From an uncultured Candidatus Saccharibacteria bacterium (lineage in GTDB: Bacteria; Patescibacteriota; UBA1384; CAILIB01), in NCBI GenBank assembly GCA_964593885.1, contig CAZQKK010000001.1, forward strand, positions 24,066 through 88,065: DNA of 64,000 bases, given 5' to 3'. The notes under the pieces were generated by a model. It was not told the origin of the DNA. It did no database searches and saw nothing but the letters and a program-made list of their open reading frames with translations. Positions 1 to 41,664 of the stretch are shown here, in pieces. The position numbers and the translations under genes were made by a program. Within the stretch, counting starts at the first letter, position 1; each line of letters opens with the position of its first letter.

Positions 1-3000
1 ATAGTTTCCCGAATAAACGAAGGTTGAGGTTTCTGGAGTAAAAGCAGTGCCAATATTCACAGCACCGAAGCAGGCCATAAAGTCACAGTCCAGGGTTCCT
101 GAGAGTGTCCAAGTCTTTGAGCCCGCATTAAGTTGGTTTGAACCACCACCGCTGTTTGAAAGAATGTCCAGCTTATTGGTAACGGTGATGCCTCCACTAC
201 CCATAGCAGAAGTTGAAACATCAAGAACCCCAGAACTAAAACCAAAGTTGAGGTTGTAGAATGTCCAAGTGGTATTGCCGCCAAAACTACCATTACCTGT
301 GAGCCAGAAGGTGCCCCCAGTAAGGTTGATGGTGCCATTACCAGTAGCATCTCCACCATTCACCGTAATATCGTTTGTACCAGAAAGGGTACCCAACGTT
401 ACCGTAAGGTCATTTGAAACGAGCATGGCTGAGGAGTTACTCCAGCCGCCGCCACTTCCGTTAAAGGTGAGGTTGTAGAAAGCCGATCCGCCATTGAGTG
501 TTCCAGAAAGAGTCTTCCCAGTTGCAGTCGCTGTAAAGGTTACCGTTCCGCTTCGCGCAGTGAAGGTTCCGCTGTTGGAGTAGTTACCAGCAACAGAAAG
601 TGCGTAGTTTGAAGCGGTAACATCGAGGGTACCAGCGGTGATGGTAAGGTCATTATCAACATTGGTAGCGCCCTCTAGCACGTAGGTTTCACCAGCGTTA
701 TTGATGGTAAGGTTGTAGAAAGACGAAGTCATCGATTGCACCGTGGTATTACCTGCGCCATTGTTTCCGGTATAGGTGACGGTTGAACTTGCACCAGCAA
801 AAGCAGCTGCAGGCGAAGCTAGGAGCTGGAATGGATCGCCCCCAGTACCAGAAAGTGTCCAAGTTCGGTTACCAGCATTTAACGTGGTAGCTTGTACATC
901 ACCAGACTTACCCACCCGAAGTATGTGTGAAACTGTAAGACCCCCTGTTCCACCTGTCTGAGTGGTAAAGGTATGCCCACCTGAAGCATCAGAATTTGAG
1001 AATGACAAATCGTAGAAGGTCCATGCTGTGGATCCAGATGTGGTGCCAAAGTTTTTATTCGCTGTTGCGCGTTGCTCAAACTCACCACCAGTGAGATTAA
1101 TTACCCCAGCAGTGCCTGCAACAGCACCCTTTACTCTGACGTCGTTGGTACCTGAGAGGGTTCCAGCTGTCATGGTAAGGTCGTTGGAGACCTCCATAGC
1201 TGATGTGTTACTCCAACCTCCACCTGATCCATTGACGGTCAGGTTGTAAAAACCTGAAGTTCCGTTGAGGGTTCCTGAGAGGGTTTTACCTGTGGAAGTA
1301 GCATTGAGGGTTACCGTTCCACTTCGCGCCGTAAAGGTTCCACTGTTGGAGTAGTTATTCCCTATGGTAAGGCCGTAGTTTGAAGCAGTAACGTCAAGGG
1401 TGCCCGCTGTATTGGTAAGGTTGTTGCTGGCAGTTGTTGCCGCCTCAAGGACAAATGTTTCTGAACCGTTATTAGTCTCAAGGTTGTAGTAGGTTCCTGA
1501 TTGAATAGTGCTATTACCCGCACCATTATTTCCTGTGTACTGGAAGGTTGATGTGTTGGCGGTGAATACCGCAGCTGGCGAAGCAAGGAGTTGGAATGAA
1601 TCTCCTGTCGTACCAGAGAGTATCCAGGTACGGTTTCCAGCATCAAATGTAGTGATATTGGTATCACCAGAGACTCCTGCCTTTAGCACACCTGTCACTG
1701 TGATGGTTCCACTTCCACCTGTTTGAGTATTAAACGTTACTGGAAAGCCTCCACTTGCATACACGGAGAGGTTATTAAATGTCCAGTTATTTGAACCAGA
1801 GGTTGTCCCAATATCTCGAGTTCCCCCTCCACCTCTATGGGTTACGGTCCCACCTGTGAAAGTAATCGTCCCTGCTCCAGTAATGTTTCCAGATACATCA
1901 ACATTCACCGCTCCCGCAAGCGTTCCAAGCGTAACGGTAAGGTGCCTCGCAATGTCTACATTGTTACTAAATGTCCATCCACCGCCTGAACCGTTGAAGC
2001 TGAGGTCGTAGAAGTCACCGTTACTGTAGGTCATTGTTCCTGCCAGGGTTTTCCCCGTTGTAGTAGCGTCAAAGGTAACGGTTCCGGTTCGAGCCTCAAA
2101 TGTTCCACTGTTTGAGTAGCTTCCCCCAATTGTTACGGCGTAGCTACTGGTGGTGTCAACATCAAGCACACCTGTAGTAATCGTGAGGTTGTTGTTCACA
2201 TCCATCGCCCCAGCTAAGAGCACGGTTCCAGCACTCCCGAGGGCCTGGATGTAAGCGTTGTACAGGCTCTGCCCGTTGGTGGTAAATGTCTTAGTACTGG
2301 AGTTTGGAGGGGCGAACCTGAAGTCTGAGGTTCCAGGGGTGAGGGTAATTGCTCCTGTACCATCCACCAACTTCACCGCCCCGCTCACCGTTACATCAGA
2401 GCTGCCAAGGTTAATACTGTGGCTTCCACAGTTATTTCCTACATAGAGCGAGGTGGTGGTATTTGCAAGTACTACGTTTGAATCGTTGAGACTGAGTGCC
2501 CATGAACCGGTACGAGTTGGCGTACATGGGGCGATGTAGATGAAATCAGTGGTAATAGAGTAGTTACTGCCAGTTGTCGTAAAGGTTGAGCCCGTGATTC
2601 CATCTGTTGCCTCAAAACGTAGGCCTCCGGTACTGGTAATGTTTCCAGCTAGCTGGAATGTAATGCTGTTTCCAATTGCTGCATACGGCTGAATACCCCA
2701 GTTACCATAGTTGCCACCAGCAATATTCACCGTGATGCTTGCTGTCCTCCCGTTGAAGTAGATGGAGCCGGTACCGTTGAGTGTCGTAGCTGAGTTGAAG
2801 ACTACAGGTGTGCATGTTGTTGTACACCTAACGTCCATGTACCCACCACTTCCGGTAACCGTTCCTCCGTTAAAGGTGAGGGAAACCTCAATCACAAAAG
2901 AGTTTGCCGAGAGAGTGGTCACAAAACCACTTGCCCCAATATTGAGCGTCTCAAACTTGGAATTATTTGGGACGGTAAGGGTTCCAGTTCCCGTGTGCGT

Positions 3001-6000
3001 CACTACTGAAGTTGTCCCCTCGACGAATTTGTCCCCGCTATCGGTGAAGTGCCTGACAACCGAGAGTGTAGAAGTAGCCGGGGTGTACGAGACACCTGAG
3101 GTATTTGCCAGGGTAAAGTCTCTCCCAACCGTGAGGTTAACACTTGAAGAAGTAACCGCACCGTTGGTAACCGTGAAGTCATTTGAGGTCTCAAGGGCTG
3201 CACTAAAGGTCCAACCTCCAGATACTCCATCAAAGACCAGGTTATAGAACTTTCCGGTAGCACCATTGAGTGTCCCCGAGAGCGTTTTACCTGCAGCCGT
3301 TGAGGAGAAGGTCACGGTTGAGGTACCCATGGTGAAGGTACCACTGTTGGTCCAAGATCCACCAACGGTTACCGAGTTACTTCCAGGAGAGAAGACGCCC
3401 GAGGTATTGATCTTAACATCACCACCAGTAACGTTTGTAGTAACATTTCCACCCGGAGTAAAGGTCTTTGACCCCCAAACGTAGAGACTTATTCCAGACT
3501 CAACAGTAAGGTTACTGGAAGCTACACTGTACCTAATCCCAGCATCGGTATTGTCAGCAGTTGAGAGGTTTGCGTTGGTAATGGGGCCAGCATCCTCGTG
3601 TCTCACAATCAACCTGTTTTGGTAGAGGTTGAAACCGGTAATATTTGAAGTTGTATCTGCTGCACGTGTTACCGTTGTGGCCTTTGGAGTTTCAGTACTA
3701 TCAATCCAGACCGCAATAGGATCCCCCGCAGCGCTTGGGTTAGAAGCCACGGTTACGCTATAGGTACCACCAGCAGCCGTACACGAAGTTGAAGCAGTAC
3801 TACCTCCAGCAACAGCAACCTTAATGGTGAGGTTATCTGATGAACAGTTGTAGACACTTGAACCTTCATCAGAGTAGACGGTTCCCGAAACGGTGATGAG
3901 TACGATGGGTTGGTACTCAACAAGCAACCATGCTGCACTTACCTGCACAGTTCCGCTCCCTGCCGTGTCTCTGAAGCCAATTTGAGCTGCGTCTAGCTGG
4001 GTATCGGTCCAGGCAGTGCTCTGCTCAGGTCTGGTGTAGGCGGTGATTGGGTAGCTATAGGGTGCTACGGTATCATTGGTTTTCCAGGTTGTAGAGGCTG
4101 GGATGAGGGTTTTTGACTCGATAACGGTTCCGTTTGAGGAATCTTTGAGTCTAACCATCATGTCTTCTTCTGTAGCACTACTGGTATTAAACCTTGCACC
4201 CACCGAAACTAGGGAAATAGTTTCACTCCCTAGGGTGCTATCCGCTAGGTTAACGTCAAGGATGTCATTGGTGGTAGTTTCACTTGCCAAGTCGGTTGCA
4301 TCGTTTGGCGGGGTAGTGTCATCGATGTTGGCGTAACCGTTGGTCCAAGCCGAATTATCCCCTGCTGCATTTGGAGAGAGGTGGATGATTTTTCCGGCAC
4401 CTGGCCAAGTATTCTGAGTTGCTCCACTACCACTGTTAATTGCGACATCATCAATTACCGTCTGGCCGGTAGTCATTGATCCAACGTTTCCCACATTATT
4501 TCCAACCGCAAGCTTTGAAACTCCCGTGGAAATACTCCTGTTTGACGCAGAAGCAAACGATGACCCGTCAATGCGTGCATCAACAATATGACTCCCCGCT
4601 GAAGCAGTAGTATCAAACTTGATTTCTAACCTATACCACGTAGCTGTACTGAGCGCAGAGGACGCAGAGCCTACCTGTCCATCTTCGTCGTAGAGCTTGA
4701 CAGTATTGGTTGCCGATAACGTGAGGTAGGCTCGCCGGGTACTTGCCGAATCTCGTAACTCAAGTACTGAGACTTCATTGGAGTTTGTGGTGGTGATGTA
4801 GACGTATGCCCTGGCGTAGAAAGGACCGTTTGAATCTGCGGTAGCAAATGTCTGGCTAATGAAGGTTTGAGCGCCAGCTGTTGCAGATTGAAAGGCGTAG
4901 GTTCCACCATTCGCAGGTGAGGTAACAATGGTTCCTGAACCAGTCATGGTGGTCCACTCCATATCAGCTGTGGTGGAGTTGAGCTCAAAACCACTTGAGT
5001 ACAGCCTTCCACCTGAGAGTGGGGTGTACTCAACTAGAAGCCAGATAGCAGTTGACTTAAATCCAACTGTTGTATCATGGTTACTCACACCAATTTGAGT
5101 GGTATCAAGGTCAGCGGTAGTCCAAGGGGTATAGGTGGTGGCGCCAGGTAGATCGTAAAGGGTAAGTTTTGAGAGTTGGGCGGTATCATCATCATTCGTT
5201 ATCCAGGGACTCCATGAGTCAAGAACCCCAATATTTCCGGAATCCTCAACAGTTCCACCACTTGATGCCCTAATTCTTGTTTTATAGTTGATATCAACAT
5301 CTGAACCCATACATGCCACACCAGCTCCCCCGCTCCAACCAGCCAAATCTCCACCACAAGCGTTCATTCTGGCGCCAACAGATACAAGCTTTACCTTATC
5401 TCCTGAAGTGATACCTGCACTTGAGGCTGATTCAAGGTTGATTTCAGTAACTGAGCCACTCCCTTGGGAATAGATACCACCACCTGTACCATCTGAAGGG
5501 GTAACCTCGTTCACGTCATCGTAGTCGTCGGTGTTGTTTGGCGAACCTGTCCACGCCTCGTTGTCTCCGTCAGCATTCCCGTGCATGTGGACAATCTTTC
5601 CTTCACCTGGCCAGTTGTCAGCCTTGGTGGTGTCGCCGTTGATGGCGATATCGTCAAAGTACATGTTTGCTGTGGTGGAGGTGAGGTTACCCCAAGTGAG
5701 CCTATCAATCCCTGCTGCAAGGTTCTCTGAAGTAGACGAGGCAACCGTCACCCCATCAAGCTTGAGGGTGGCATCGGTTGATGAGAGGGTGGTGGTATCC
5801 ACAAATACCTCAACCCGGTACCAGGTTGAAGCAGTAAGCGCAGATGAGGCGGAGCCAATTTGAGCAGAGTCTTCTTCGTTCCAGAGCTCAATGGTTCTAT
5901 CTGTATTCATCCTCACCCCAATCTTGTTGTTGGTTGAGGTACCAATTTTTAGGAACGCCATTTCAACACCAGGGGTGGTATCTACCCTGACGTATGCCCT

Positions 6001-7290: not shown

Positions 7291-7293
7291 ATT

Positions 7294-16200: not shown

Positions 16201-19200
16201 ACCATCAGCCGAGATGTCAAGATTTTCAAAGTTAAATGCTGAGAATGTGCTAGCAATTGGGTAGTTTGACCAGGTTAACCCGTAATCACTAGAGACGTAC
16301 GCTCTGTTGTTATTTCCAGTAACCATCCGTGAACCGTCTGATGACATTTTCACCCGCAACCAGGATCCGCTACCAATGCTCATCGTGGTCCAGGATGTCC
16401 CGAAATCCTCTGAAATAGATATCCCCCCAAAGTACTTAGCACTCACCATTCGTTTACCATCATCAGACAGTGCAAGAGCGTAGTAGGAACCTCCACCTGC
16501 AATGGTAGCCGCATTGCCCCAGGTTACCCCGTAGTCAGATGAGATGCGTGCTGGATTTCCAGCAACAGCCATCTTAGAACCGTTTGCCGAAACAGCAAGC
16601 TGCGTTGCTGAAGCAACACCCTGCGCACCTCGATCTGTCCAGGTAGCACCGTAGTCTGAGGAGGTAAAGACCTTATTCGCGCCAGTCTCACCTGCAATCT
16701 GGTACTTACCGTCTGCTGACATGGCAACCTGCTTCCAAGTCCTACTTGAATCTCTGGCAGTCCAGGTAGCACCATAGTTTGATGAAGTATAGATTTGAGT
16801 ACTATCCCCCGCAGCCGTTTGATACCTTCCATCAGCAGATATTGCAACATCATTCCAGTTTCGATTTGAATCACGAGCAGTATACGTTACTCCATAGTCT
16901 GAGGAAGTATAGATTTGCCCGCCGTAGACCGTACCCGTAAGATACCTACCATCACCCGAGGTTGCTACCCCAGTCCAGTAACTTTGTGCAGATCCACGCT
17001 GCGTCCAGCTCTGGCCAAAACTTGAGATTGAAGCATCGCCTCCATCGGTAGTTACCCTGTTTCGCCCAAAGAAGAGGGAGCTTGAGGAGCCACTGCCAGC
17101 TGGGGTGCCAGAGAGCATCTGGAGCTGCATATTGTTGAAGTTGATGCTCCCAGCAGTTGTGAGGTTACCCTGGTAGTCAACGCTCAGCTTACTTGATCCA
17201 TTCACCTGGAAGTCAGCGAAGTTGCCGGTAAAGCCTGAGCCAGAGTTCACCCCAAGGTAGGTGCCTGCGGTACTTCCACCAACCACTGCTGAGCCAAGTT
17301 GGAGAAGCGATGAGGTAGCTGAAGCTGCCGGAGCACCGGTAATAGCCACGGCGTTTGCACCAGTAGTTGAGAACGTAGAAGCGCCACTGAAGGTATTAGC
17401 TCCCGATCCGCTCTGAGTGTAGCCACCTGAGGTGGTAATGCCGGTGATCCCACTGATTACCCCAGCAGTTGAGACGTCAAAGGCGGTAGAATCAACCGCA
17501 AAGGTGTTGAGACCACCACCAAGCGTAATTGCCCCAGTTGAGGTTCCAGTACCAATGTTGGTGGCGAAGTTAGAAGAGGCGTTGAGGTTAACTGTAGCTC
17601 CGGTAACCGTAAGGCCAGCTTGACCTGTCACTAATCCGCTAAAGGTAGGGTTGGAGACAACCGCAATGGTTGGGTTGGTGGTACCTGTAATTGAAATGTT
17701 GGAGCCCTGGGTGAGCGTTGAGGCAAGGTTGATGAAGGTTGGAGCCGAGGAGCCGTTTGAGGAGAGAATTTGGCCAGCACTTCCACCAACAAATGAGGTA
17801 GCGCCTGCGCCTGTCTGGTATGGGATGTTTCCAGCAGCACCACCAGCAAGGTTGGTTGCGGTGGAGACCGAGAGGGTGGAAGGATCAGTCCAGGTCATTG
17901 CGGTAGCACCGCCACCAGCACTGGTAAGGAAGTAGCCTGAGGTGCCAGCAGCTGTTGGGAGGTTGAAGTTGTAGGTGCCGGCAGCTGCCTGGGTTGTAAT
18001 AGAAACGGTACCCGAGGTTGCGCCAACAAGACCAAGGCTTCCTGACCCCGTAACATAGAATGACCCTGATGCGTTTGGACTTACGGTAACATCGGTACCA
18101 TCTCCGGAAATTCCAGCTCCACCTCCACATGATGGGTCAAAGTTAAGGTAAGTTGCGGTAAACATACTGCAAGAGCCACCAGTTTGTACCTGGAATCCTG
18201 TTGCCGTAATATCTAACGTTGAGACGATGTCGCCACTTGTTACGCTGAAGACATCAGTACCGTTATTCTGAACCGCAAACTTACCGGTAGAACCTGTAGC
18301 GATGTTAATCAGGAAGTTTGGATCGGTGGCGGTGTCCTGCAGGGTGAAGGCAAGGTTCCTAGCGTTGGTGAGTGCGATGGTGTTGCCGTTATCGTAGGCA
18401 GCCTGCAGCGTTACTGAAGCAGTAGCACAGCTAGACCAGCTAGGAACTCCCGAAGCGAGAACGAGACACTGACCATTAACCCCTGCGGTAAGCTTTGAGA
18501 GCGTTGTGGCACCAGAGGCGTAGAGGAGGTCTCCTACGGCGTAGCTTGCCTGGCCGGTTCCACCGTACTGCGCAGCGATGGTGCTTCCGTTGTAGGTAAC
18601 GTTCTGGAGGGTGCCACCATTGGTAAGACGAGTTGTGTTGTTGGTGAGGAGCGATCCATCGAGAAGGTTTAGATCTGCCACTTGCCCAACCTCGGTATTC
18701 ACAACTTTCAGCTGTGAAGTACCCTCACGCATAAGGTTGATAGCGTATTCTTCGGTATCAATTGGTGAGGTAATCCCGCTTGCAGTCACGGTTAGAGATA
18801 AGCCTGTAACACCGTTTTCAAGGGTGAGGTTATCGCCAGAAAGCTTCGTTGTGCCTTGGAATCCAACAACCCTAATTCCTTCTGCTCCTCCTACAGTTGA
18901 GTTGTTAGTGACTGTAAGTGGGGCAACCGTGCTGGCATCATCACTATTGGTAATACTCAAGAGAGAAGCGGTACTATCGTACGTAGCATTGTCAGCCTGG
19001 GTGATGTTAACAAGAGCAGAGCTCCTGGCACCAGCCACAAGGCTAGACTGAACGGTGAGTGTCCGAGCATTAGTTCCACTAAAGGTAGTAGAAGCAGTTG
19101 ACCTCAGGAAATCGGTGGAATCAAGCCCGTCCAAGGTACCGGAGTCTACTCCTGCGATGGTGGTGTTTGTCACGCCGGTAATTCGTCCCTGAGCATCGGT

Positions 19201-22200
19201 GGTAAATACTGGCACCTGGGTGGCTGAACCGTATGTTCCTACTGAACCCACGTTAGGAAGGCTTAGAGAAACGCTGCCGCCAAGCGCAACCGCACCACCA
19301 CCTGAGAGACCTGTGCCAGCAGTAACAGTGAGTGAAGAGTTGGCAAGTGCTGCATTTGCAACAGAACCATTTGGTAGCGATACCGCACCGGCAGTTACCG
19401 TAAAGCCACTGGCTACGGTGAGTGAACCAGTGAAGTTAGCAGAGGAACTAATGGTTTGGCCGTTGTAGGTTCCAGCGGTTAGGTTGCCTGCATTAATGGT
19501 CCCAGCAACAATGTTGCCGTCTTTATTTACACTTAGCTTGCTCACCCCATTCACCTGGAGATCCACTAAGTTTCCGGTGTAACCTCCGACAGCATTGAGA
19601 CCGATGAAGGTACCGGCTGCATCGCCCCCAACAATGGCATTCCCGAGGCGAAGGAGGCTACTGGTAGCCGAGGCGGCTGGAGCTCCAGTGAGCGATAGTG
19701 CTGTACCACCGGTGTTTGAACCGGTAATAAGGCCGGTAAACGTAGGGTTGTTCACAATGTTGAGGGTGGTACTCCCACCCAGTGAGACAGATCCACCGCC
19801 CGACAGGTTGGTACCAGCGGTAACGGTGAGTGAAGAGTTTGCTAGGTTGGCATTTGAGATGCCGGCAGTTCCAGAGAGATTTGCGTTAGTGAGACCTGTA
19901 ATGGTGTTTGTACCAGCATCGATGGTAGCGCCTGAAATGGTACCAGCATCCACGATACCAGCTCCACTGTTATCGATACCGTTCACCCCAAGCAATCCTC
20001 CAATAGAAACGTCATTAGTAACTGAAAGACCGGTACCGGCAGATGAGGCGGTAACCACCCCAGTAAAGGTTGGGTTGTTTACCACATTTAGGGTGGTTGA
20101 GGAACCAAGAGCTACAGATCCGCCACCAGTGAGGTTGGTACCAGCCGTTACCGTGAGAGATGCATTGGCAAGCTCAGCGTTATCAATAGAGCCATTTGGG
20201 AGCGAAACGGTACCAGAGGTAACCGTAAGTCCATTTGCAACGGTGAGCGAACCGGTAAGGTTAGCAGCTGCCGAGATGGTTTGACCATTGATAGTTCCAC
20301 TGGTGATGGTGCCACTACCCAAGCCAAGTGAGGTACCAATAATGGCGCCAGTATCTGAAACGCTGAAGGTGGTGGCACTATCGGTGGTGTTCCTCACCGC
20401 CATGGCGATTCCAGAAGTACCTCGGGTAACGGTGAAGGTTCCGTTGGTGGTGGTAGCCGTACCAATGGCCAGGGCGCCAGCCGCAAAGTTGAGGCCTGAA
20501 GCTGAAGCGATAGTGGTATTGCTGTCCCAGTAGGTAAGGGTGCCGGAACTTCCTGATCCAGTTACCCCACCACCTGCTGAACATGATCCCCAGGTAGGAA
20601 CACCGCCAGAGATAACGAGACACTGGTTGTTTGAACCGTTGGCGATAGCAGACCAAGCACCAGCCGAAATGTAAGGCACGCCAGTTGAGGCGCTTGAATC
20701 AAAGCCAGTGCCACCCCTATTTGGAGCAAGCTGACCAGTGGTGATTGCTGAAGCTGCGAGGGCAATACTGGTTGCCGAAACACCGGTTACCCTTCCCTGG
20801 GCATCAGTGGTGAAGACAGGCACCTGACTTGCTGATCCGTAGGTTGCAGCACTCCCCACATTTGGTAGTGAGAGGGTGGTAGAACTCCCAAGAGAAACCG
20901 CTCCGCCTCCGGAGAGGCCAGTGCCAGCAGTGACGGTGAGCGATGAGTTTGCAAGCTCGGTATTGCCAATTTCCCCGGCTGGGAGCGAAACGGTGCCGGC
21001 AGTTACCGTGAGGCCACCGCTGGTAATGGTGGTAGAACCCGAGGTGACGGCAAACACATCGGTACCATTGTTCTGGACGGCAAACTTGCCGGTAGAACCA
21101 GTGGCAATATTGACGATAAAGTTACTGTCTGTGGTGGTGTTTGCCAGGGTAACGGCAAAGTCTTTTGCATCAGTTGTGGTGATGGTGTTGCCATTCCCGT
21201 AGGCAGCCTGCAAGGTGTTTGAAGCCTGTGCACAGCTTCCCCAAGTTGGGATTCCTGCAGAGACAATGAGACAGTCCCCGTTTGAACCAATTGCGCGTTT
21301 TCCGAGGGTGTTGGCACCTGTGGCATAGATAATATCGCCAGTAGCGTAGCTGGAAAGGCCAGTTCCACCGTAGGTTTCGCCAATGGTTCTTCCGTGCCAG
21401 TCAAAACCAGAAATGGCATTGGTAACATCGCCAACGATATCGGCTCCATCCACAATGTTTACCTGGCTGACGTCTAGGGTGAGTGTTTGGAGGCCGCTAT
21501 TACCGAGGCTGATTGCCCCATTTGCAAGGATACCCACACTTCCACCTGGTGTTGACATTTGAATGGTGCCACCAGTAGCGGTTGCATCAAGGACAATACC
21601 TGGGAGCGAACCAACTGCAGTAAGTGAAGTAACACCAGCACTGGAGGTTGAAATATCAAGCCTATTTGAGGCGTTGTAACGGTTGCTAATCTGGTTTCCT
21701 GCGTTTGAGGTGACAGAGAGCGGCTGGGTAAAGGCATTGGATTGGGCGAGGTACGCAACGTTGCTGAGGGTACCATTTGCATTTACATCAAGCCCACCAA
21801 GCTGGAGAGCTGTGGTGGCATTAATGGTTGGAGCGGTAACCGAGGTAGCGAAACTTGGGTTCCCAATCACGCTAATTGAGGTACTTCCCCCCAGGGCTAC
21901 AGAACCACCACCGGTGAGGTTGGTTCCGGCAGACACCGTGAGTGAGGAATTTGCAAGCTCAGCATTGCCAATTTCGCCGGCAGGGAGCGAAACGGTTCCA
22001 GCACTTACCGTGAGGCCGTTGGCAACGGTGAGTGAGTTGCCACTAATGTCCCCTGTGCTGTTGATTGAGAGTACCGTTGCGTTATCAGCGGTATTCCTGA
22101 CTGCAAGGACGATGCCACTTGAAGCCTTCCTAACCGTGAGAGGAGCGATGGTTGAAGCCGTCCCAATTCCAAGCTCTGATGCGCCAGCGTTCCAGTTGAG

Positions 22201-23250
22201 ACCGGCTGTGTTGGCGATAGTTGATGCGCTATCCCAGTAGCTGAGCTGTCCAGTAACTCCTGATCCAGTAACTCCACCACCACTTGAACATGAACCCCAG
22301 GCAGGAACACCAGCGGTAATGATGAGACACTGGGTATTTGAGCCATTTGCGAGAACAGACCAGGTTCCGCCAGCAAGTACTGGGATACCCGTAGAGCCTG
22401 AGGTGTTGAGTCCGGTGCCACCGTACTGAGCCGCGATAACACTCCCCTGCCAGGACCCACTAATGACGGTGCCTAGCGTGCTATTTCCAGAAACGGTGAG
22501 GGTGGTGGCGTCAGCGGTAGCAACGTAGAGGTTGGCAAAACGGTTTCCGGTAGCACCAAGGTCAATGGTTCCTGAAGGTGTTAGGTTACCGGTAAAGCTA
22601 GTAACACCGAGCGTCTTGTTGGTGAAAGTCTCAGTTCCAGCAAGGGTAGCAAGGACACCAGTAGTTGGCAGGGTAACGCTGGTAGCACCTGTGGTAACCA
22701 GGCTCAAAGGATCAGCGCTAGTGGTAAAGCTGGCGCCAAAGCTGATGGTGGCGCTGTTTGGAATGGTGAGAGTACCCGTTGTGTCAGTAACCGTGAGGCC
22801 GCTCACCTTCTCAGCATTGATTGCCTGAGCAACAGCACCAATCTGGAGACGTGGTGTCATCTCACCGTCGCCGTTGAAGTTAATCCCTAGGTATACCCCG
22901 TCCTGGTTGAAGTTAACCGCGGAGGTGATTGGGTTTGAAGAACCAAGGTTGGTGCCAAAAATACTGTTAGTAACGGTGAGGTTCTTGGTCTCAGTCCAGA
23001 TTGGAGCTCCGCCGGTTGCAACGGTGTAGAGGCTGAAGGTAAAGGAGTACGAACCGGTAACAACCGTGGTTCCGTTGAGGTTAACAACACGTCCCTGGAA
23101 AGGAATCTGGCGATTGATACCTGAAGCAGCAAAAGCTGTAGGTGTCTGAACTACCCAAGAAAAGGCATTTGAGCATGCAAAAGCAACCACTCCGAAGAGT
23201 AGTACCCCGCCCCTGAGGAAATTTCGTGTGGCGAAGCGGTGTTGCGACAT
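7294..23250 (-). CDS. Giant secreted/surface protein A, 5318 aa. Signal peptide, repeated Cys-pair modules, about 20 BNR/Asp-box repeats forming three 6-8-bladed beta-propeller blocks, a fourth SGFGS-type propeller-like block and long Gly/Thr/Ser/Ala-rich repeats
   Basis: Single uninterrupted ORF in the track. N-terminus MSQHRFATRNFLRGGVLLFGVVAFACSNAFSWVV...AFAASG is signal-peptide-like. S-x-D-x-G-x-T-W motifs (IYTSSDYGATWTARDSSRNW) repeat roughly every 40 aa in blocks encoded at about 16250-17050, 15180-15900 and 13150-14000. A block of (S/T)xDG(T/S)(S/T)W(T/S)QVN(T/A)SGFGS repeats is encoded at about 9100-10060. A module YGGTG...ANGSNTQCL(I/V)I..GVP(A/T)WGSC recurs 3 times, and TQAAAGTYNFNLPT(A/T)AGTSGY recurs 3 times. 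Confidence 0.9.
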   Translation of the reverse strand: MSQHRFATRNFLRGGVLLFGVVAFACSNAFSWVVQTPTAFAASGINRQIPFQGRVVNLNGTTVVTGSYSFTFSLYTVATGGAPIWTETKNLTVTNSIFGTNLGSSNPITSAVNFNQDGVYLGINFNGDGEMTPRLQIGAVAQAINAEKVSGLTVTDTTGTLTIPNSATISFGASFTTSADPLSLVTTGATSVTLPTTGVLATLAGTETFTNKTLGVTSFTGNLTPSGTIDLGATGNRFANLYVATADATTLTVSGNSTLGTVISGSWQGSVIAAQYGGTGLNTSGSTGIPVLAGGTWSVLANGSNTQCLIITAGVPAWGSCSSGGGVTGSGVTGQLSYWDSASTIANTAGLNWNAGASELGIGTASTIAPLTVRKASSGIVLAVRNTADNATVLSINSTGDISGNSLTVANGLTVSAGTVSLPAGEIGNAELANSSLTVSAGTNLTGGGSVALGGSTSISVIGNPSFATSVTAPTINATTALQLGGLDVNANGTLSNVAYLAQSNAFTQPLSVTSNAGNQISNRYNASNRLDISTSSAGVTSLTAVGSLPGIVLDATATGGTIQMSTPGGSVGILANGAISLGNSGLQTLTLDVSQVNIVDGADIVGDVTNAISGFDWHGRTIGETYGGTGLSSYATGDIIYATGANTLGKRAIGSNGDCLIVSAGIPTWGSCAQASNTLQAAYGNGNTITTTDAKDFAVTLANTTTDSNFIVNIATGSTGKFAVQNNGTDVFAVTSGSTTITSGGLTVTAGTVSLPAGEIGNTELANSSLTVTAGTGLSGGGAVSLGSSTTLSLPNVGSAATYGSASQVPVFTTDAQGRVTGVSATSIALAASAITTGQLAPNRGGTGFDSSASTGVPYISAGAWSAIANGSNNQCLVISGGVPTWGSCSAGGGVTGSGSSGTLTYWDSNTTIASASGLNFAAGALAIGTATTTNGTFTVTRGTSGIAMAVRNTTDSATTFSVSDTGAIIGTSLGLGSGTITSGTINGQTISAAANLTGSLTVANGLTVTSGTVSLPNGSIDNAELANASLTVTAGTNLTGGGSVALGSSTTLNVVNNPTFTGVVTASSAGTGLSVTNDVSIGGLLGVNGIDNSGAGIVDAGTISGATIDAGTNTITGLTNANLSGTAGISNANLANSSLTVTAGTNLSGGGSVSLGGSTTLNIVNNPTFTGLITGSNTGGTALSLTGAPAASATSSLLRLGNAIVGGDAAGTFIGLNAVGGYTGNLVDLQVNGVSKLSVNKDGNIVAGTINAGNLTAGTYNGQTISSSANFTGSLTVASGFTVTAGAVSLPNGSVANAALANSSLTVTAGTGLSGGGAVALGGSVSLSLPNVGSVGTYGSATQVPVFTTDAQGRITGVTNTTIAGVDSGTLDGLDSTDFLRSTASTTFSGTNARTLTVQSSLVAGARSSALVNITQADNATYDSTASLLSITNSDDASTVAPLTVTNNSTVGGAEGIRVVGFQGTTKLSGDNLTLENGVTGLSLTVTASGITSPIDTEEYAINLMREGTSQLKVVNTEVGQVADLNLLDGSLLTNNTTRLTNGGTLQNVTYNGSTIAAQYGGTGQASYAVGDLLYASGATTLSKLTAGVNGQCLVLASGVPSWSSCATASVTLQAAYDNGNTIALTNARNLAFTLQDTATDPNFLINIATGSTGKFAVQNNGTDVFSVTSGDIVSTLDITATGFQVQTGGSCSMFTATYLNFDPSCGGGAGISGDGTDVTVSPNASGSFYVTGSGSLGLVGATSGTVSITTQAAAGTYNFNLPTAAGTSGYFLTSAGGGATAMTWTDPSTLSVSTATNLAGGAAGNIPYQTGAGATSFVGGSAGQILSSNGSSAPTFINLASTLTQGSNISITGTTNPTIAVVSNPTFSGLVTGQAGLTVTGATVNLNASSNFATNIGTGTSTGAITLGGGLNTFAVDSTAFDVSTAGVISGITGITTSGGYTQSGSGANTFSGASTFSTTGANAVAITGAPAASATSSLLQLGSAVVGGSTAGTYLGVNSGSGFTGNFADFQVNGSSKLSVDYQGNLTTAGSINFNNMQLQMLSGTPAGSGSSSSLFFGRNRVTTDGGDASISSFGQSWTQRGSAQSYWTGVATSGDGRYLTGTVYGGQIYTSSDYGVTYTARDSNRNWNDVAISADGRYQTAAGDSTQIYTSSNYGATWTARDSSRTWKQVAMSADGKYQIAGETGANKVFTSSDYGATWTDRGAQGVASATQLAVSANGSKMAVAGNPARISSDYGVTWGNAATIAGGGSYYALALSDDGKRMVSAKYFGGISISEDFGTSWTTMSIGSGSWLRVKMSSDGSRMVTGNNNRAYVSSDYGLTWSNYPIASTFSAFNFENLDISADGKRIVVAPDSSPGYIYTSVAQENTLLANLTVNAGSAFQGSLLKVQSGGQDRFTISDSGSLAVTDAFLGKTFSVTGGVTTAYGQLTVAGGFTPLSSWNPVGTVTGLSEPSVSTTGQYQAAVKNGGKIYTSSDYGATWTARDSDRGWFEVAVSGGGQYQAAVVNSGQIYTSSDYGATWTARDSSRGWQDVAISDDGQYQAATVYGGQIYTSSNYGVTWTPRDSSRNWYDIAVSSTGQYQTAVVLSGLIYTSSDYGATWVSQDSSRVWTAVAMSDSGQYQTALKISTNQIYTSSDYGDNWTARDSSWSWSDVAISGDGTLQLVSASDGNGTYYIYKSTDYGVTWVTLGLTVNKAWQAIALSGDGKYGLVATSDYLYQSVPLTPSLIVSTGGASITGLITGNTGLTITGGVASINASSNFATNINTGTSTGAVTIGGGSNTFAVDSTALDISTAGAITGVTGITTSGAYTQSGSGANTLTGVTTFSAAGTALAVTNNATIGGTLNGQTISATASLTGTLSVATSVTSPIVNVGTAGASTGALNLSGATSGTVTIQTQAAAGTYNFNLPTTAGTSGYILTSGGGGAGAMTWTNPSALGVSWSSLTAPTGNLSLNMGTNTTAFDYATGTGSNNLFSLTTANSSNGTGYLLNIATGTSSTVKPLRVSAAGTDIITVAANGATVLAGTTTVSGALSATAAGTGLSVTNNISIGGQISLAGQILQRLNGSSTSPIERLAFGRTLLGSQSVDETAENFGALWTARDSNRNWTGIASSADGKYQAATVYGGNIYTSSNFGVTWTSRDSSRNWQDVAVSADGSRQTAVVDGGQIYTSSDYGATWAPQDSNRAWHAIAVSADGKYQTAAHYGGQIYTSSDYGATWTPRDSSRIWTSMAMSADGKYQSSTVWNDKIYVSSDYGATWTPKDSNRQWNEGIAMSANGAYQTAGVQSGQIYTSSDYGATWTGRDSSRNWNDMQISDDGARQVAGEYNGTIYVSTDFGVTWASKESSRYWNHFAMSADGKYMSATVDGGQIYTSVTEKTTQYAGLAVTGALSGSAGLTVTGGTINLNVSSNFATNINTGTSTGAITLGGGLNTFAVDSTALDISTAGAITGVTGITSSGSYTQSGSGANTLTGVTTLSAAGTALSVTNNASIGGTLSVGGVPNAGYATAFASSNTADLPGIYGIAYGTAAATYGNAGLRGTGYVTTGTGYGLGVYGVSDGPRAGGTNIGAYFTASGAASNYALLTGAGNVGIGTDTPLSALVVGGAGGVNAGFEIDVSTGITTQAYNRNTLGYATYNIDGSVINLRPGGSVTAAVSSGLLAVTGSVSSTTGFLTNNNQSYKAKNFAGTGVDIAYLDTADALQLIGRAGGINLNVAGAAAPITFTINGGEAARFSSTNRNLLVGTASDDGVNKLQVAGGIATTGGYTQSGSSANTFTGATSVTSGSLTVSNTSNSALSVTSTTGRADGILSGAAGNFRMYQMQTGGSIRWGIYTSSEAESGSNAGSNFGIARYDDAGAYLADAFTINRATGLTTIAGATTLSTSVTSPIVNVGTAGASTGALNLSGATSGTVTIQTQAAAGTYNFNLPTTAGTSGYVLTSAGGAGSPMTWTDPAALSVRWNSIASPTGNQSLTMGTNTTTWNYATGTSTNNLFNLTTDASANGTGALLNIQTGASSTVLPMRIRAGAVEGLLVDASGNVGVGTIAPGAKLSISTNGTSLLSLTHDATNGVISTSTGAINLQPASGTLAINKSGVQNRLRVYGSGGSVYGELTNDNTNTILTSSSGELQLQGTGTNQFILGSVGTAMNLVFEESATISGQGGNTITVGQSGDTFNLNASGVTYNVGTLTSTGATLNTSATGTVAFTINGPAGLTANLLNLAVNSSNRLTVTTAGALSTVSSLTSTLTGANALAITGAPQASATASLVQLGSTIAGGSASGTFLGLNATGGFAGNFVDFQVSGTNFFKVTSSGATSSAATSAVFAANSATESAFQATGTPTSNAAKSLLQLGSAIASGSTGGNYLGINSGSGFTGNFLELEKNGTQVLAVTADAQFNLTGAAIATTSWTQGNTSGFGSAANTAITGAITHNDALYYATTNTSTGTQIFRSTNGTSWTQVNTSGFGSANNTTAVLGSYAGTIYAATTNSSTGAQVWSSVDGSTWTQVNASGFGSASRTTATAITVFGGAAYVSTANGETFRSFNGTTWTLAADLGGSNGSGVRSFFSAQGYLYAASAASSGGAYLQRSQNGTTWSAVGSVGFGDTNNTEFASALYFNGAYYFGTKNTTSGTKLYRSYDLSTFTQVNGSGFGSANNTTVQSMVAYNGGLYAVTGNTSTGSQVYYSADGSSYSQVNTSGFGSSSSSTSYSALAFKGNLIVSVGNASVGTQIWYAQTGTIKSTTAGLAVKSAQIGDVLIENATIKGVSELTAGTISAQTIGVKSLQVADGIAVNSSPTFVGNLAEYKANDTTVLATTISGATKLSPWSFTSVLQTTTAESAFTDITSTANAGGAYNVYKNSGALNDRTYYGFSDSSFTSILYTETSGSGGATGFEVCTELTSGVCTTWTAISGGSDGTTGLTASGTVSWTNTLTKGTVSGISAYWVRLTVSSGMSVQANGRVRISSFETSLATDAGVAFMLQAPYTASVTGWSTNGTFIGANRETAFSGNFLDFRAAGTAVFSVSASGGITVAPTSVSTTLLSVTQIASQTADTIAVGKVFVVDTTGKLASSESLPGVPTVGVDPNSGATRGDLTTSSGPLRPFAGAGLTLNITAGAAYTADHYTSGSRTTVRRCVIPSDTSIAMTASTTEYVYLIASTTDTTTGKQCTVAKNATLPTFNAQYPVLVLAKVVSGASITSVADTRFFIGSTLVYAVSTSSVEPGSIVIQNTSVDGQVDDSSSAAATGVAGITAIGNTASGIFILNTSGTAWAQAVSGAARGVCAGTSTTTGSVNNITAAVTACAGRVMTNAASATPAVLVQISPN

Positions 23251-23257: not shown

Positions 23258-23287
23258 AGTATAGGTGTCCAACAGGTTAGCGGTCAA
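23258..23287 (-). promoter_or_regulatory. Sigma70-like promoter of giant gene A. -35 TTGACC, 18-bp spacer, -10 TATACT, only 7 nt before the ATG, so near-leaderless
   Basis: rc of 23251-23299 reads TTATTTGACCgctaacctgttggacaccTATACTgagtgggATG. Hexamers match the consensus in 5/6 and 5/6 positions. Confidence 0.5.
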
Positions 23288-23299
23288 ATAACCGTATAT

Positions 23300-23327
23300 A
23301 AAAAAAGAAGCTCCTAGAGCTTCTTTT
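23300..23327 (-). terminator. Intrinsic terminator of the TPR gene. Hairpin GAAGCTC-TAG-GAGCTTC followed by a U7 run, with the stop codon in the loop
   Basis: Plus strand aaaaaaagaagctcctagagcttcttttcc. On the minus strand the stem-loop is followed by TTTTTTT. Separates the upstream operon from the giant-gene promoter. Confidence 0.7.
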
Positions 23328-23940
23328 CCAGCCTCTTGATTATCTCTGAAAGCTCATCACGTTTTGTGGCTTCCAGACCTTGTTTTGAGATATTTACCGC
23401 ATCTTGGATTTTTCCCTGGTCTTCGTAGAGAATCGCCAGGTTTGTGTAGGCAACCACGTAGCCAACATCAGACGAGATTGCTTTCCTGTAGGCTCTTTCC
23501 GCCTCCCCCAATCGCAATACCCTACTTTCATCGTCAATTGCCGCCCAATCACGGTACGAATTTCCAATCCCGTTCCAAGCAAACGCTACGTTTGTCTCAG
23601 CCTTGATCAGCTCTTGGTAGCCACTAATTGCCTCTTCGTACTTCTTGAGACGGTACTTTACGAGTGCCAATTGTGCGCGGTACTCAAGCTTTGCGTCCTT
23701 CACCAACGCCTGTTCGTACAGGGTCTCTGCACCAGTCATATCCCCAGCTCGTTGCTGCTCTGCTGCCCGTGTAGCAAGCTCAAGCGCACTGTAGCTAGGG
23801 GTAGCTTGGTTGAGCTCGCGTACCTTGCTCCAGCCACCAACGGCACTAACCACCAATAGAGCAACTCCAGCAAGCAAAATGGTGGCAAAGAAAACGAGAA
23901 AGGCAAACTTCCAAGGCGATCGACGCATGGTGAACATCAT
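23314..23940 (-). CDS. TPR-repeat protein with N-terminal TM anchor (208 aa)
   Basis: Hydrophobic N-terminus FAFLVFFATILLAGVALLVVSAV, then 3-4 TPR-like repeats (AETLYEQALVKDAKLEYRAQLALVKYRLKKYEEAISGYQELIK; AFAWNGIGNSYRD...AERAYRKAIS; AYTNLAILYEDQGKIQDAVNISKQGLE). Start is 3 nt after the stop of the FN3 gene. Confidence 0.7.
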   Translation of the reverse strand: MMFTMRRSPWKFAFLVFFATILLAGVALLVVSAVGGWSKVRELNQATPSYSALELATRAAEQQRAGDMTGAETLYEQALVKDAKLEYRAQLALVKYRLKKYEEAISGYQELIKAETNVAFAWNGIGNSYRDWAAIDDESRVLRLGEAERAYRKAISSDVGYVVAYTNLAILYEDQGKIQDAVNISKQGLEATKRDELSEIIKRLEKKL

Positions 23941-23943
23941 TTG

Positions 23944-29469: not shown

Positions 29470-29505
29470 TCCCGCTCCTTTGGGGTGCGCAGGCCGGAAG
29501 GGAGC

Positions 29506-30048: not shown

Positions 30049-30139
30049 AGGAAGAGAGGCTAGTGCTGATTCATAGCTATTTTGGCACATACTATCTCTC
30101 CGTTACAAGCTAACCGACACGCATGGTACACTGAGGTAT

Positions 30140-33476: not shown

Positions 33477-33523
33477 ACGGTCACTATGCACCCCAACTCT
33501 TACACCTTACCCAACTAAAAGTT

Positions 33524-36789: not shown

Positions 36790-36864
36790 TGGCGCCCTCG
36801 ACAGGAATCGAACCCATATCTCCCCCTTAGGACGGGGTAGCTCTATCCATTGAGCTACGAGGGC
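36790..36864 (-). tRNA. tRNA-Arg (anticodon CCU)
   Basis: rc GCCCTCGTAGCTCAATGGATAGAGCTACCCCGTCCTAAGGGGGAGATATGGGTTCGATTCCTGTCGAGGGCGCCA. 7-bp acceptor GCCCTCG/CGAGGGC, D-arm GCTC/GAGC, anticodon loop GTCCTAA, T-loop TTCGATT, CCA encoded. Confidence 0.85.
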
Positions 36865-41657: not shown

Positions 41658-41664
41658 ATAAAAG

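What the first reader, a model, noticed from the sequence alone, without database searches (positions are those of the whole stretch)
1..23250. Two tandem giant adhesin-like genes (5318 aa plus over 2400 aa partial) fill over a third of the window
Gene A (7294..23250) and gene B (<1..7290) are separated by 3 nt and are co-oriented, so they are probably co-translated from one >23-kb transcript. Each protein has its own signal peptide or anchor and a very different domain make-up. A carries BNR propellers plus Thr/Gly-rich modules; B carries LamG-like domains plus a beta-helix-like repeat array. Proteins of this size in a compact genome are the classic signature of host-attachment or surface-layer machinery in epibiotic/CPR-like bacteria and are usually unannotated. 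Gene B is invisible in the supplied ORF track.
Basis: partly seen in the sequence, partly recalled or inferred. Interest (0 to 1): 0.85.

Follow-up and report, generated by a model that had tools for sequence, protein, structure and literature searches.

The report
Two giant surface-fibre genes, CPR bacterium
Two back-to-back giant genes in a tiny-genome Berkelbacteria-like (CPR) bacterium encode exported cell-surface proteins, and parts of them resemble predatory-bacterium fibre and phage virion (tail-type) proteins. They are most likely sugar-binding attachment fibres: an interesting variant of a known theme, not a new kind of system.

Summary
Gene A (7294..23250, minus strand, 5318 aa) is intact. 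Gene B (<1..7290, minus strand) is open for all 2430 codons and starts 3 nt after A's stop.

The closest relatives are Candidatus Berkelbacteria (CPR). B orthologues are 3840-3874 aa, so about 1400 aa of B lie outside the window.

A has:
- a cleavable signal peptide;
- a conserved N-terminal beta-sandwich shared by more than 14,000 protein clusters;
- Thr/Gly/Ser/Ala-rich repeat modules;
- three BNR/Asp-box propellers and a fourth propeller-like repeat domain;
- a module homologous to the trimeric beta-helix tip of the Bdellovibrio MAT fibre Bd3182;
- an orphan C-terminal domain.

B has an N-terminal membrane anchor and a weak MG2 (Ig-like) match. It also has two modules (ConA-like jelly roll plus beta-sandwich, pLDDT 92) homologous to phage virion and minor-tail proteins, and 255-aa super-repeats whose fold I could not test.

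A hairpin-terminator and promoter pair precedes A and is conserved in a relative, so A-B is probably its own operon.

The pair is not obligate. The same syntenic locus carries A-like genes of 1636 to 5318 aa, with or without B.

The best reading is glycan-binding attachment fibres. That function is inferred, not shown.

The parts
7294..23250 (-). Gene A: complete ORF of 5318 aa, a secreted giant modular fibre-like protein
   Evidence: The orthologue P0183 (3748 aa) is collinear at both ends.
23125..23250 (-). A residues 1-42: signal peptide (hydrophobic segment 15-35, AFA|AS site)
   Evidence: Hydropathy scan and direct reading of the sequence. No dedicated signal-peptide predictor was available.
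22546..23118 (-). A residues 45-235: conserved N-terminal region. Residues 45-140 form a confident beta-sandwich, followed by a conserved extended linker.
17026..22830 (-). A residues 141-2075: Thr/Gly/Ser/Ala-rich shaft made of several recurring module types
   Evidence: Chunked self-BLAST and diverged DNA repeat families D6 and D8.
11611..17163 (-). A residues 2030-3880: lineage-specific cassette, largely absent from orthologue P0183
   Evidence: Chunked BLAST of A against P0183. Chunks starting at residues 2001-2501, 3001-3201 and 3501-3701 find no match, and the few hits inside the region fall on off-diagonal repeat modules. P0183 has no Asp boxes and no Pfam hit.
16126..17013 (-). BNR/Asp-box beta-propeller 1 (A residues ~2080-2375)
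   Evidence: Pfam BNR_6, motif positions, 120-nt periodic DNA repeats.
15046..15903 (-). BNR/Asp-box beta-propeller 2 (A residues ~2450-2735)
13081..13968 (-). BNR/Asp-box beta-propeller 3 (A residues ~3095-3390)
11548..11919 (-). A residues 3778-3901: module homologous to the trimeric intertwined beta-helix tip of Bdellovibrio MAT fibre Bd3182 (PDB 8OJN)
   Evidence: phmmer against PDB, E 2.3e-8 and 9.4e-10, with an alignment carrying RW...E.G.NAGSN..I.RYDD.GA. The identity of 8OJN is taken from PMC10769870.
9046..10053 (-). A residues 4400-4735: fourth, non-BNR repeat domain ('W[TS]QVN.SGFG' repeats) that looks propeller-like
   Evidence: Self-similarity and DNA repeat family D10. This roughly 320-aa stretch is shared with 59 proteins of many architectures. 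There is a weak DUF6242 hit. The propeller fold itself was not modelled.
7297..8334 (-). A residues 4973-5318: conserved orphan C-terminal domain with 4 invariant Cys, ending P-x-V-L-x-x-x-P-N
   Evidence: There is no PDB or PHROG match with the domain alone and no Pfam match in the scan of the enclosing A fragment.
1..7290 (-). Gene B: first 2430 aa of a membrane-anchored giant protein. Orthologues are 3840-3874 aa, so roughly 1400 aa lie beyond base 1.
7159..7227 (-). B residues 22-44: single N-terminal transmembrane or signal-anchor segment
   Evidence: Hydropathy 2.6 over residues 17-48. No AXA-type cleavage site is visible.
6226..7113 (-). B residues 60-355: membrane-proximal region with a weak MG2 (Ig-like) match
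   Evidence: Pfam MG2, E 1.2e-6, below the gathering score. Many homologues carry PF01835. A stalk role is inferred.
3886..6225 (-). B residues 356-754 and 755-1135: two copies of a roughly 385-aa module. Each is a ConA-like lectin/glucanase jelly roll plus a second beta-sandwich.
1..3573 (-). B residues 1240-2430+: repeat region with about 255-aa super-repeats (1689-1943, 1945-2200, 2202->2430). The fold was not determined; a beta-solenoid is only inferred.
   Evidence: and DNA repeat family D7. No Pfam Beta_helix hit and no PDB profile hit.
23258..23329 (-). Intergenic control region. A 13-bp hairpin plus U-run (23301-23329) holds the upstream gene's TAG stop in its loop. It is followed by TTGACC-18 nt-TATACT (23287..23258), which ends 7 nt before A's ATG.
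   Evidence: dG -14.5 kcal/mol, z -3.0. The same layout occurs in relative L089.
23314..30090 (-). Conserved upstream neighbours: TPR protein, FN3/Pur_ac_phosph_N protein, MacB/FtsX permease, ABC ATPase, histidine kinase and response regulator. They are syntenic with A-like genes in three other loci (L089, L091, L092) but sit in a separate transcription unit.
   Evidence: Pfam. Synteny in L089, L091 and L092.

Best explanation
The window comes from a Berkelbacteria-like CPR/Patescibacteria genome. A and B form a bicistronic operon that encodes two very large proteins exported by the Sec pathway to the cell surface.

A is released from its signal peptide. It is a modular fibre with the same design logic as the Bdellovibrio 'mosaic adhesive trimer' (MAT) fibres and phage tail fibres:
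- a conserved N-terminal beta-sandwich, presumably the end held at the cell;
- a long Thr/Gly-rich repeat shaft;
- interchangeable binding modules. Here these are three BNR/Asp-box propellers, a fourth propeller-like domain, a Bd3182-like beta-helix module and an orphan C-terminal domain.

B stays in the membrane through an N-terminal anchor. It projects a weakly MG2-like region, two ConA-like lectin modules of a type common in phage virion proteins, and a long repeat array.

Both proteins most likely bind surface glycans of a partner or host cell, or of a substrate. Module gain and loss at this locus would tune what they bind.

Shown here: the gene structures, export signals, domain folds and homologies, operon signals and synteny. 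Inferred: trimeric fibre assembly, glycan binding and a role in host attachment.
For: Genes and junction.

Taxonomy.

Export signals.

A's N-terminal domain family is very large, and the listed targets range from about 200 to 5716 aa. A scan of 41 members found occasional lectin, SH3, beta-helix and K1-lyase domains.

The design is mosaic:
- P0185 (1636 aa) has the same N- and C-terminal ends as A.
- P0186 (2207 aa) has the same N-terminus but a different C-terminus.
- P0183 (3748 aa) lacks all the propellers.

A module is homologous to a solved adhesive fibre tip (PMC10769870).

BNR propellers.

B module fold and phage relatives.

Operon signals and their conservation. A-B spacing is 1-3 nt in four loci.

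The literature reports giant membrane proteins in a CPR predator and suggests they act in host recognition and attachment (PMC8080830).
Against: - There are no expression, localisation or binding data.
- Trimerisation was not tested, and the monomer model of A beyond residue 140 has low confidence.
- The link between A's N-terminal domain and the MAT N-terminal domain rests on position and on my memory of the motif, not on a comparison.
- No S74 chaperone domain is present.
- Beta-propellers inserted in a trimeric shaft would be unusual.
- The top structural neighbours of B's jelly roll are polysaccharide lyases, so catalysis is not excluded.
- B is dispensable at this locus in relatives, so the two proteins need not act together.
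- The lifestyle of Berkelbacteria is not established.
Confidence: 0.6

Rival explanations
1. The proteins are surface-displayed polysaccharide-degrading enzymes (lyases or glycosidases). They would cut host cell-wall or environmental glycans for feeding or entry, rather than act as passive adhesins.
Against: The NCBIfam hit is far below its cut-off (175 bits). No sialidase, GH or PL Pfam family hits either protein. The same jelly-roll fold also scores highly against non-catalytic lectin and CBM domains, including a phage Dit CBM2 and a mycobacteriophage baseplate protein. The propeller blades are only about 40 aa long and repeat the Asp box in most blades, which in my experience is typical of binding or scaffold propellers. 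Catalytic residues were not mapped.
Confidence: 0.15
2. The proteins are structural envelope components, such as an S-layer-like coat, a spacer or a protective fibre mat. They would have no specific partner recognition.
For: Both are exported, very large, repetitive and Thr/Ser/Gly-rich.
Against: Length and module content at this locus vary strongly between close relatives: 1636 to 5318 aa, with B present or absent. In a closely related contig (L084), B is only 75% identical while A's C-terminus is 92% identical. This pattern fits recognition proteins under diversification better than a conserved lattice. No SLH or S-layer family hits A or B.
Confidence: 0.12
3. The region is a phage-derived element, such as a prophage remnant, a tailocin-like fibre cluster or a phage-receptor decoy, not host-encoded attachment machinery.
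For: B's module matches phrog_14065, phage minor tail proteins and many viral contigs. A carries a tailspike-like beta-helix module.
Against: No other phage genes flank the pair. The neighbours are a two-component system, an ABC transporter, RNase Y and tRNAs. GC content is uniform. The locus is syntenic in several genomes. A's N-terminal globular domain was not matched on viral contigs or in the phage collection. Both proteins carry cellular export signals.
Confidence: 0.05

Closest known systems
Bdellovibrio bacteriovorus MAT (mosaic adhesive trimer) fibres, e.g. Bd3182 (PDB 8OJN/8ONB/8ONC; Caulton et al. 2024, PMC10769870)
   Same: Both have a signal peptide followed by a conserved beta-rich N-terminal domain with no PDB neighbour. 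Both have a long repeat shaft and a mosaic, exchangeable distal part. A residues 3778-3901 are sequence-homologous to the Bd3182 tip beta-helix (E 9e-10). MAT-type proteins occur in organisms that live on other cells.
   Different: A is 3-12 times longer: 5318 aa against 417-1915 aa in the paper's Table S3. A carries internal BNR propellers and has no S74 chaperone. The Bd3182-like module sits inside A, not at its tip. Patescibacteria are not among the lineages listed in that table. Homology of the N-terminal domains and trimerisation were not tested. In some lineages A is coupled to a second giant gene.
Phage virion / minor tail proteins carrying the phrog_14065 module (Streptomyces phage Hiyaa gp13; stand-alone 320-390 aa proteins in BFVD and IMG/VR)
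   Same: B's two roughly 385-aa modules align over their full length at 30-44% identity on IMG/VR contigs and about 32% to Hiyaa gp13. They share the two-domain fold, with TM-scores of roughly 0.7-0.85 for the best matches.
   Different: In B the module is duplicated and embedded in a membrane-anchored protein of about 3850 aa in a cellular genome with no phage context. The function of the phage proteins is itself unknown.
Giant membrane proteins of the CPR predator Vampirococcus lugosii (PMC8080830)
   Same: It is a small CPR genome encoding several proteins of 1392-4163 aa. These are predicted to be membrane or surface located, carry interaction domains including alpha-2-macroglobulin-type domains, and were proposed to mediate host recognition and attachment.
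   Different: The reported domain sets differ (WD40, PKD, integrin, DUF11). I did not make any sequence comparison with those proteins. No link to phage or MAT proteins was described there.
Tandem giant extracellular proteins Giant1-5 of Apilactobacillus kunkeei (PMC12863079; abstract only)
   Same: Consecutive genes for 3000-8000 aa surface proteins take up several percent of a small genome.
   Different: The phylum and lifestyle are different. The domain content was not compared here, so the likeness is in genome organisation only.
BNR/Asp-box beta-propellers (Pfam BNR_6)
   Same: The S-x-D-x-G-x-T-W motif recurs about every 40 aa in three blocks of roughly 290 aa each.
   Different: Only the repeat model hits. 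No catalytic sialidase or GH family model reaches threshold. The propellers are inserted into a fibre protein.

Membership tests
MAT (mosaic adhesive trimer) fibre superfamily | N-terminal signal peptide | tested here: met
   Hydrophobic segment at A residues 15-35, followed by AFA|AS.
MAT (mosaic adhesive trimer) fibre superfamily | Conserved beta-rich domain of about 130 aa directly after the signal peptide, homologous to that of the Bdellovibrio MATs | not testable with these tools
   A has a conserved beta-sandwich at that position, shared by more than 14,000 clusters. Like the MAT domain as the paper describes it, it has no PDB neighbour. No Bdellovibrio N-terminal sequence or AFDB library was available, so homology is untested. 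The motif resemblance is from memory only.
MAT (mosaic adhesive trimer) fibre superfamily | Beta-helix or beta-prism shaft modules homologous to solved MAT structures | tested here: met
   A residues 3778-3901 against Bd3182 632-782 (8OJN), E 9.4e-10, aligned across about 120 residues.
MAT (mosaic adhesive trimer) fibre superfamily | Intertwined trimer along the fibre | not testable with these tools
   Only monomer prediction was available. The low pLDDT beyond residue 140 is what a monomer model of an obligate oligomer would give, but it proves nothing.
MAT (mosaic adhesive trimer) fibre superfamily | Conserved N-terminal end, diversified C-terminal end | tested here: met
   P0186 and P0233 share only the N-terminal roughly 210 aa (P0186 also one short internal module). 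P0185 shares both ends. The central cassette differs between A and P0183.
MAT, S74 subgroup | C-terminal Peptidase_S74 chaperone/protease domain | tested here: not met
   No S74 hit in A or in 41 family members. If A is a MAT, it would belong to the non-S74 subgroup.
BNR/Asp-box repeat propeller | Repeated Asp-box motif at blade spacing | tested here: met
   Pfam BNR_6, E 1e-22 and 6e-20, above the gathering score. There are 16 motif matches and 120-nt DNA periodicity.
Sialidase / BNR glycoside hydrolase | Match to a catalytic-domain family model at its threshold | tested here: not met
   No Pfam sialidase or BNR_2 hit. NF045728 scores 51.9 bits against a cut-off of 175.
Concanavalin A-like lectin/glucanase (LamG-like) fold | Jelly-roll fold | tested here: met
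Pfam Laminin_G_3 (PF13385) | Sequence match to the family model | tested here: not met
   No hit in B at E<=0.1. Some distant B-family homologues do carry PF13385 elsewhere in their sequence.
Right-handed parallel beta-helix (Pfam Beta_helix / NosD) | Match of B's 255-aa repeats to the family, or a predicted solenoid | tested here: inconclusive
   No Pfam hit. A profile of the repeat finds nothing in the PDB. The Beta_helix hit in distant homologue P0058 lies in a region not shown to align with B.
phrog_14065 / phage minor tail protein module | Full-length match to the family profile | tested here: met
   E 5e-91, 2 stretches. tblastn to Hiyaa gp13 covers 98% of the query. This makes the module a member of the family. 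It does not make the locus a phage.
Gram-positive LPXTG or RTX/T1SS giant adhesins | C-terminal sortase motif, or RTX repeats with a T1SS signal | tested here: not met
   A ends ...PAVLVQISPN with no LPXTG motif or terminal hydrophobic segment. No RTX, Big or cadherin Pfam hits. B's C-terminus lies outside the window.

The most novel reading that the evidence does not exclude
CPR/Patescibacteria may carry their own branch of the predator-type MAT fibre superfamily. In that case this locus would be a hypervariable host-range determinant. A conserved cell-proximal domain stays fixed while binding cassettes are swapped in and out, so that the protein ranges from 1.6 to 5.3 thousand residues at one syntenic site. 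The cassettes would include BNR propellers, tailspike-like beta-helices and an optional second giant carrying phage-virion lectin modules. If so, episymbiotic bacteria and their phages would draw on a shared pool of receptor-binding modules.
Probability: 0.3. Interest if true: 0.65.

Novelty: new variant of a known kind. Interest (0 to 1): 0.45.

Why it matters
How CPR bacteria recognise and hold on to partner cells is largely unknown, and most lineages cannot be cultured. This locus offers concrete, testable candidates:
- modules with solved or confidently predicted folds (BNR propellers, a ConA-like lectin module, a Bd3182-like beta-helix) that could be expressed and screened on glycan arrays;
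- a natural series of length variants at one syntenic site for comparative work.

The sequence-level link to Bdellovibrio prey-recognition fibres and to phage virion proteins suggests that very different 'cell-on-cell' lifestyles reuse the same attachment toolkit. Giant surface proteins in CPR genomes are already a known theme, though, so this refines that picture and does not overturn it.

Tried and rejected
**Calls that failed or gave little**
- A full-length A query was too long, and a 5000-aa query timed out.
- The query with A residues 4400-5318 was dominated by the propeller-like repeat domain. It returned only unrelated architectures sharing that domain, so it was a poorly chosen query.
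- Source names for 10 members of the N-terminal-domain family gave nothing informative.
- The AFDB fold library, needed to test the link to the Bdellovibrio N-terminal domains, was not installed.
- A profile of B's 255-aa repeat against the PDB gave nothing.
- A's C-terminal domain gave nothing against the PDB, and only a marginal PHROG hit (E 0.0025, 'head decoration', in two of the five homologues but not in the window's own copy).
- A single propeller against the PDB gave only noise-level hits.

**Ideas rejected**
- *A's conserved C-terminal domain docks onto B.* Rejected because the domain occurs without a following B-like gene in L085, L092 and L180.
- *A and B are fused by TAG read-through, since they are in frame here.* Rejected because the spacing is 1 nt, out of frame, in L001/L089 and L086. 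B also has its own membrane anchor.
- *The upstream ABC transporter and two-component genes are co-transcribed with A.* Unlikely, because a strong hairpin with a U-run and a promoter-like site separate them from A. They are nevertheless syntenic in three other loci.
- *Prophage origin.* Rejected on gene context.
- *Assembly artefact.* Rejected because the internal repeats are only 60-78% identical.
Full report
**1. Observation**

The ORF scan lists one ORF at 7294..23250 on the minus strand, 5318 aa, with an ATG start. Translating the minus strand from 7290 down to base 1 gives 2430 codons without a stop. The other two frames contain 82 and 175 stops.

The junction reads ...ISPN-TAG-AAT-ATG. 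The gap is 3 nt and the two genes are in the same frame. Gene B is missing from ORF lists only because it runs off the window edge.

Both proteins are rich in Thr, Gly, Ser and Ala. Internal DNA repeats are only 60-78% identical, so repeat collapse during assembly is unlikely.

**2. Organism and context**

The window also encodes RNase Y, YmdB, anaerobic ribonucleotide reductase NrdD with a radical-SAM partner (presumably its activase), class I aldolase and eight tRNAs. GC content is even, at 0.47-0.56.

The best homologues of B come from Candidatus Berkelbacteria and other Patescibacteria, with weaker ones in DPANN archaea. The best hit among species-representative genomes is Candidatus Berkelbacteria RIFCSPLOWO2_01_FULL_50_28, at 59% identity. 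The window's own genome is not in the collections searched.

**3. Gene A**

- *Export signal.* A has a single N-terminal hydrophobic segment (residues 15-35) followed by AFA|AS, which reads as a Sec signal peptide. There is no other hydrophobic segment.
- *N-terminal domain family.* An exhaustive HMMER search with residues 1-330 found 14,412 cluster representatives at E<=1e-3 and 186 at E<=1e-30. In nearly all listed hits the match lies at the N-terminus of the target, and the targets range from about 200 to 5716 aa.
- *Other family members.* They mostly lack Pfam domains. A few carry an H-type lectin, SH3, beta-helix or K1-lyase C-terminal domain.
- *Shaft.* Behind the N-terminal domain, A consists of several recurring module types.
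- *BNR propellers.* There are three blocks of about 290 aa, each with an Asp box roughly every 40 aa (Pfam BNR_6, E 1e-22 and 6e-20; motif positions; 120-nt DNA periodicity).
- *Fourth repeat domain.* Residues 4400-4735 form a non-BNR, propeller-like repeat domain that is shared with many unrelated architectures.
- *C-terminal domain.* The last 345 aa form a strongly conserved domain with four invariant cysteines and the ending P-x-V-L-x-x-x-P-N. It has no match in Pfam, the PDB or PHROGs.
- *Link to a solved structure.* Residues 3778-3901 match PDB 8OJN at E 9e-10, with a convincing alignment. 8OJN is the mature tip (residues 632-782) of Bdellovibrio bacteriovorus Bd3182. That tip is an intertwined trimeric beta-helix of a 'mosaic adhesive trimer' (MAT) fibre. 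MAT fibres are displayed on the predator surface and implicated in prey recognition (PMC10769870).

**4. Gene B**

- *Anchor.* B has one N-terminal hydrophobic segment (residues 22-44) with no obvious cleavage site, which suggests a signal anchor.
- *Membrane-proximal region.* Residues 60-355 contain a weak MG2 (Ig-like) match, below the Pfam cut-off.
- *Phage relatives of the module.* The whole two-domain module matches phrog_14065 at E 5e-91. It is about 32% identical over its full length to the N-terminal part of the 1110-aa 'minor tail protein' gp13 of Streptomyces phage Hiyaa and its relatives. It superposes on whole phage proteins of 320-365 aa, with TM-scores of roughly 0.7-0.85 for the best matches. 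It occurs on at least 101 IMG/VR contigs, in some as a stand-alone ORF of about 390 aa.
- *Repeat region.* From about residue 1240 to the window edge, B consists of roughly 255-aa super-repeats that are 50-74% identical to each other. I could not determine their fold.
- *Full length.* Orthologues are 3840 and 3874 aa. About 1400 aa of B therefore lie outside the window.

**5. Operon structure**

Directly upstream of A lies a 13-bp hairpin followed by a U-run, with the upstream gene's TAG stop in its loop (dG -14.5 kcal/mol, z -3.0). After it comes TTGACC-18 nt-TATACT, ending 7 nt before A's ATG. The same hairpin, promoter and spacing appear in the relative L089, as TTGACG-18 nt-TATAAT-7 nt-ATG.

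There is no room for signals between A and B. The A-B gap is 3 nt here and in L084, and 1 nt in L001/L089 and L086. A-B is therefore most likely a separate two-gene transcription unit. B is probably translated by re-initiation, because no Shine-Dalgarno-like sequence precedes it. The short distance from the -10 box to the ATG suggests a leaderless mRNA, but this is inference.

Read-through fusion of A and B is unlikely. The in-frame arrangement is not conserved, and B has its own anchor.

**6. Conservation**

The gene order response regulator, histidine kinase, ABC ATPase, MacB/FtsX permease, FN3 protein, TPR protein, A-like gene is shared by the window, L089 and L091. L092 also shares it as far as that contig reaches upstream, to a truncated first gene in the kinase position. 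The gene at the A position differs greatly between them:

| Locus | Length of the A-like gene | Features |
|---|---|---|
| L092 | 1636 aa | same N- and C-terminal domains as A |
| L091 | 2207 aa | same N-terminus, different C-terminus |
| L089 | 3748 aa | collinear with A at both ends, no propellers |
| window | 5318 aa | three BNR propellers |

A residues 2030-3880 hold the three propellers and the Bd3182-like module. This stretch is a lineage-specific cassette.

B follows A only in the window, in the closely related contig L084 and in L001/L089. A differently built, membrane-anchored LamG giant follows an A-like C-terminus in L086. B is absent after A-like genes in L085, L091, L092 and L180. 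B-family genes stand alone next to trigger factor in other Berkelbacteria.

In L084, A's C-terminus is 92% identical to the window's, but B is only 75% identical and its repeats are rearranged.

So the two genes are co-expressed here but are independent, mobile building blocks. The locus is a hot spot of modular change.

**7. Interpretation**

The best-supported reading is that A and B are exported cell-surface proteins that bind glycans on a partner cell or surface.

- A follows the design logic described for MAT fibres and phage tail fibres. It has a conserved base domain, a long shaft and exchangeable binding modules.
- B presents phage-virion-type lectin modules from a membrane anchor.

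Giant membrane proteins with proposed host-attachment roles have been reported in the CPR predator Vampirococcus (PMC8080830).

The following steps are not shown here: trimer formation, surface location, ligand binding and any role in symbiosis. I put this reading at about 0.6.

The rival readings are:
- surface-displayed polysaccharide-degrading enzymes, about 0.15. The jelly roll's top structural neighbours are lyases, but no catalytic family model reaches threshold;
- a purely structural envelope coat, about 0.12, which is hard to reconcile with the locus variability;
- a phage-derived element, about 0.05, which the gene context and export signals contradict.

**8. Comparison with known systems and novelty**

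The closest characterised system is the MAT fibre family. One module is demonstrably homologous, and the overall design matches. Homology of the defining N-terminal domain and trimerisation could not be tested. The S74 chaperone is absent.

A is also several times longer than any MAT listed in the paper's Table S3, and Patescibacteria are not among the lineages listed there.

I therefore rate the finding as a new variant of a known kind, namely giant modular attachment proteins of cell-associated bacteria. It is not a categorically new system.

It is useful as a concrete, testable set of candidate attachment modules in an uncultured lineage. It also shows that cellular fibres and phage virions share receptor-binding modules. 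Interest: 0.45.

Noticed in passing
window 7290-7296 (-); L084 1195-1225; L001 9880-9910: A's TAG stop and B's ATG are in the same reading frame here (...ISPN* N MRISY...) and in L084 (TAG TCC ATG). In L001/L089 and L086 the gap is 1 nt and out of frame. A read-through A-B fusion is possible here in principle, but the arrangement is not conserved.
   Followed up: partly
window 23258-23329 (-); L089 9930-10003: A strong hairpin with a U-run holds the upstream gene's stop codon in its loop. It is followed by a promoter-like site whose -10 box ends 7 nt before A's ATG. The layout is conserved in a relative that shares roughly 60-80% protein identity. This suggests a leaderless transcript for a mRNA of more than 23 kb.
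   Followed up: partly
window 23314-30090 (-); L089, L091, L092: A two-component system, a MacB/FtsX-type ABC transporter, an FN3 protein and a TPR protein always precede the A-like gene in the three other loci examined, although a terminator separates them from A. Whether they regulate, export or process the fibre is unknown.
   Followed up: partly
L084 (JGI 3300048690) versus window 1-8400: In a closely related contig, A's C-terminal domain is 92% identical, but B is only 75% identical and its 255-aa repeats are rearranged. B therefore seems to evolve much faster than A's C-terminal end.
   Followed up: partly
window 46880-49231 (+): Two camelysin/TasA-like (Peptidase_M73) genes, one of them a weak sub-threshold match, flank a weak signal-peptidase (Peptidase_S26) match. 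The arrangement recalls the TasA/SipW fibre operon (my recollection) and may be a second surface-fibre system in this small genome.
   Followed up: no
window 56953-61323 (-): There is a second cluster of ABC ATPase, FtsX-type permease, OmpR-type response regulator and histidine kinase. It parallels the cluster upstream of gene A.
   Followed up: no
window 40653-43165 (+) and 36790-36864 (-): Eight tRNA genes are present. Seven of them lie in a 2.5-kb stretch (Pro, Gly, His, Arg x2, Lys, Glu).
   Followed up: no
L002 21466-29164; L003 19845-25269: In other Berkelbacteria, the stand-alone B-family giant is followed by four to seven genes of 320-410 aa, plus one of 166 and one of 552 aa in L002. 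They have no or only weak Pfam matches (WxLIP_PGBD, Cohesin, Big_1). These may be accessory surface-complex proteins. What follows B in the window's own genome is unknown.
   Followed up: no
L096 7995-9158; L097 7995-10574 (IMG/VR contigs): The B-type lectin module occurs on viral contigs as a stand-alone 387-aa ORF or as the N-terminal part of an 859-aa ORF. Most neighbouring ORFs have no PHROG match, so these may be phages of poorly sampled hosts, perhaps CPR.
   Followed up: partly
window 31200-33491 (-); L091 285-2459: A protein of about 760 aa with a weak lipase/PGAP1-like alpha/beta-hydrolase match lies upstream of the cluster. A similar-sized protein with a weak lipase-type (LCAT) match occupies the same position in relative L091.
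   Followed up: no
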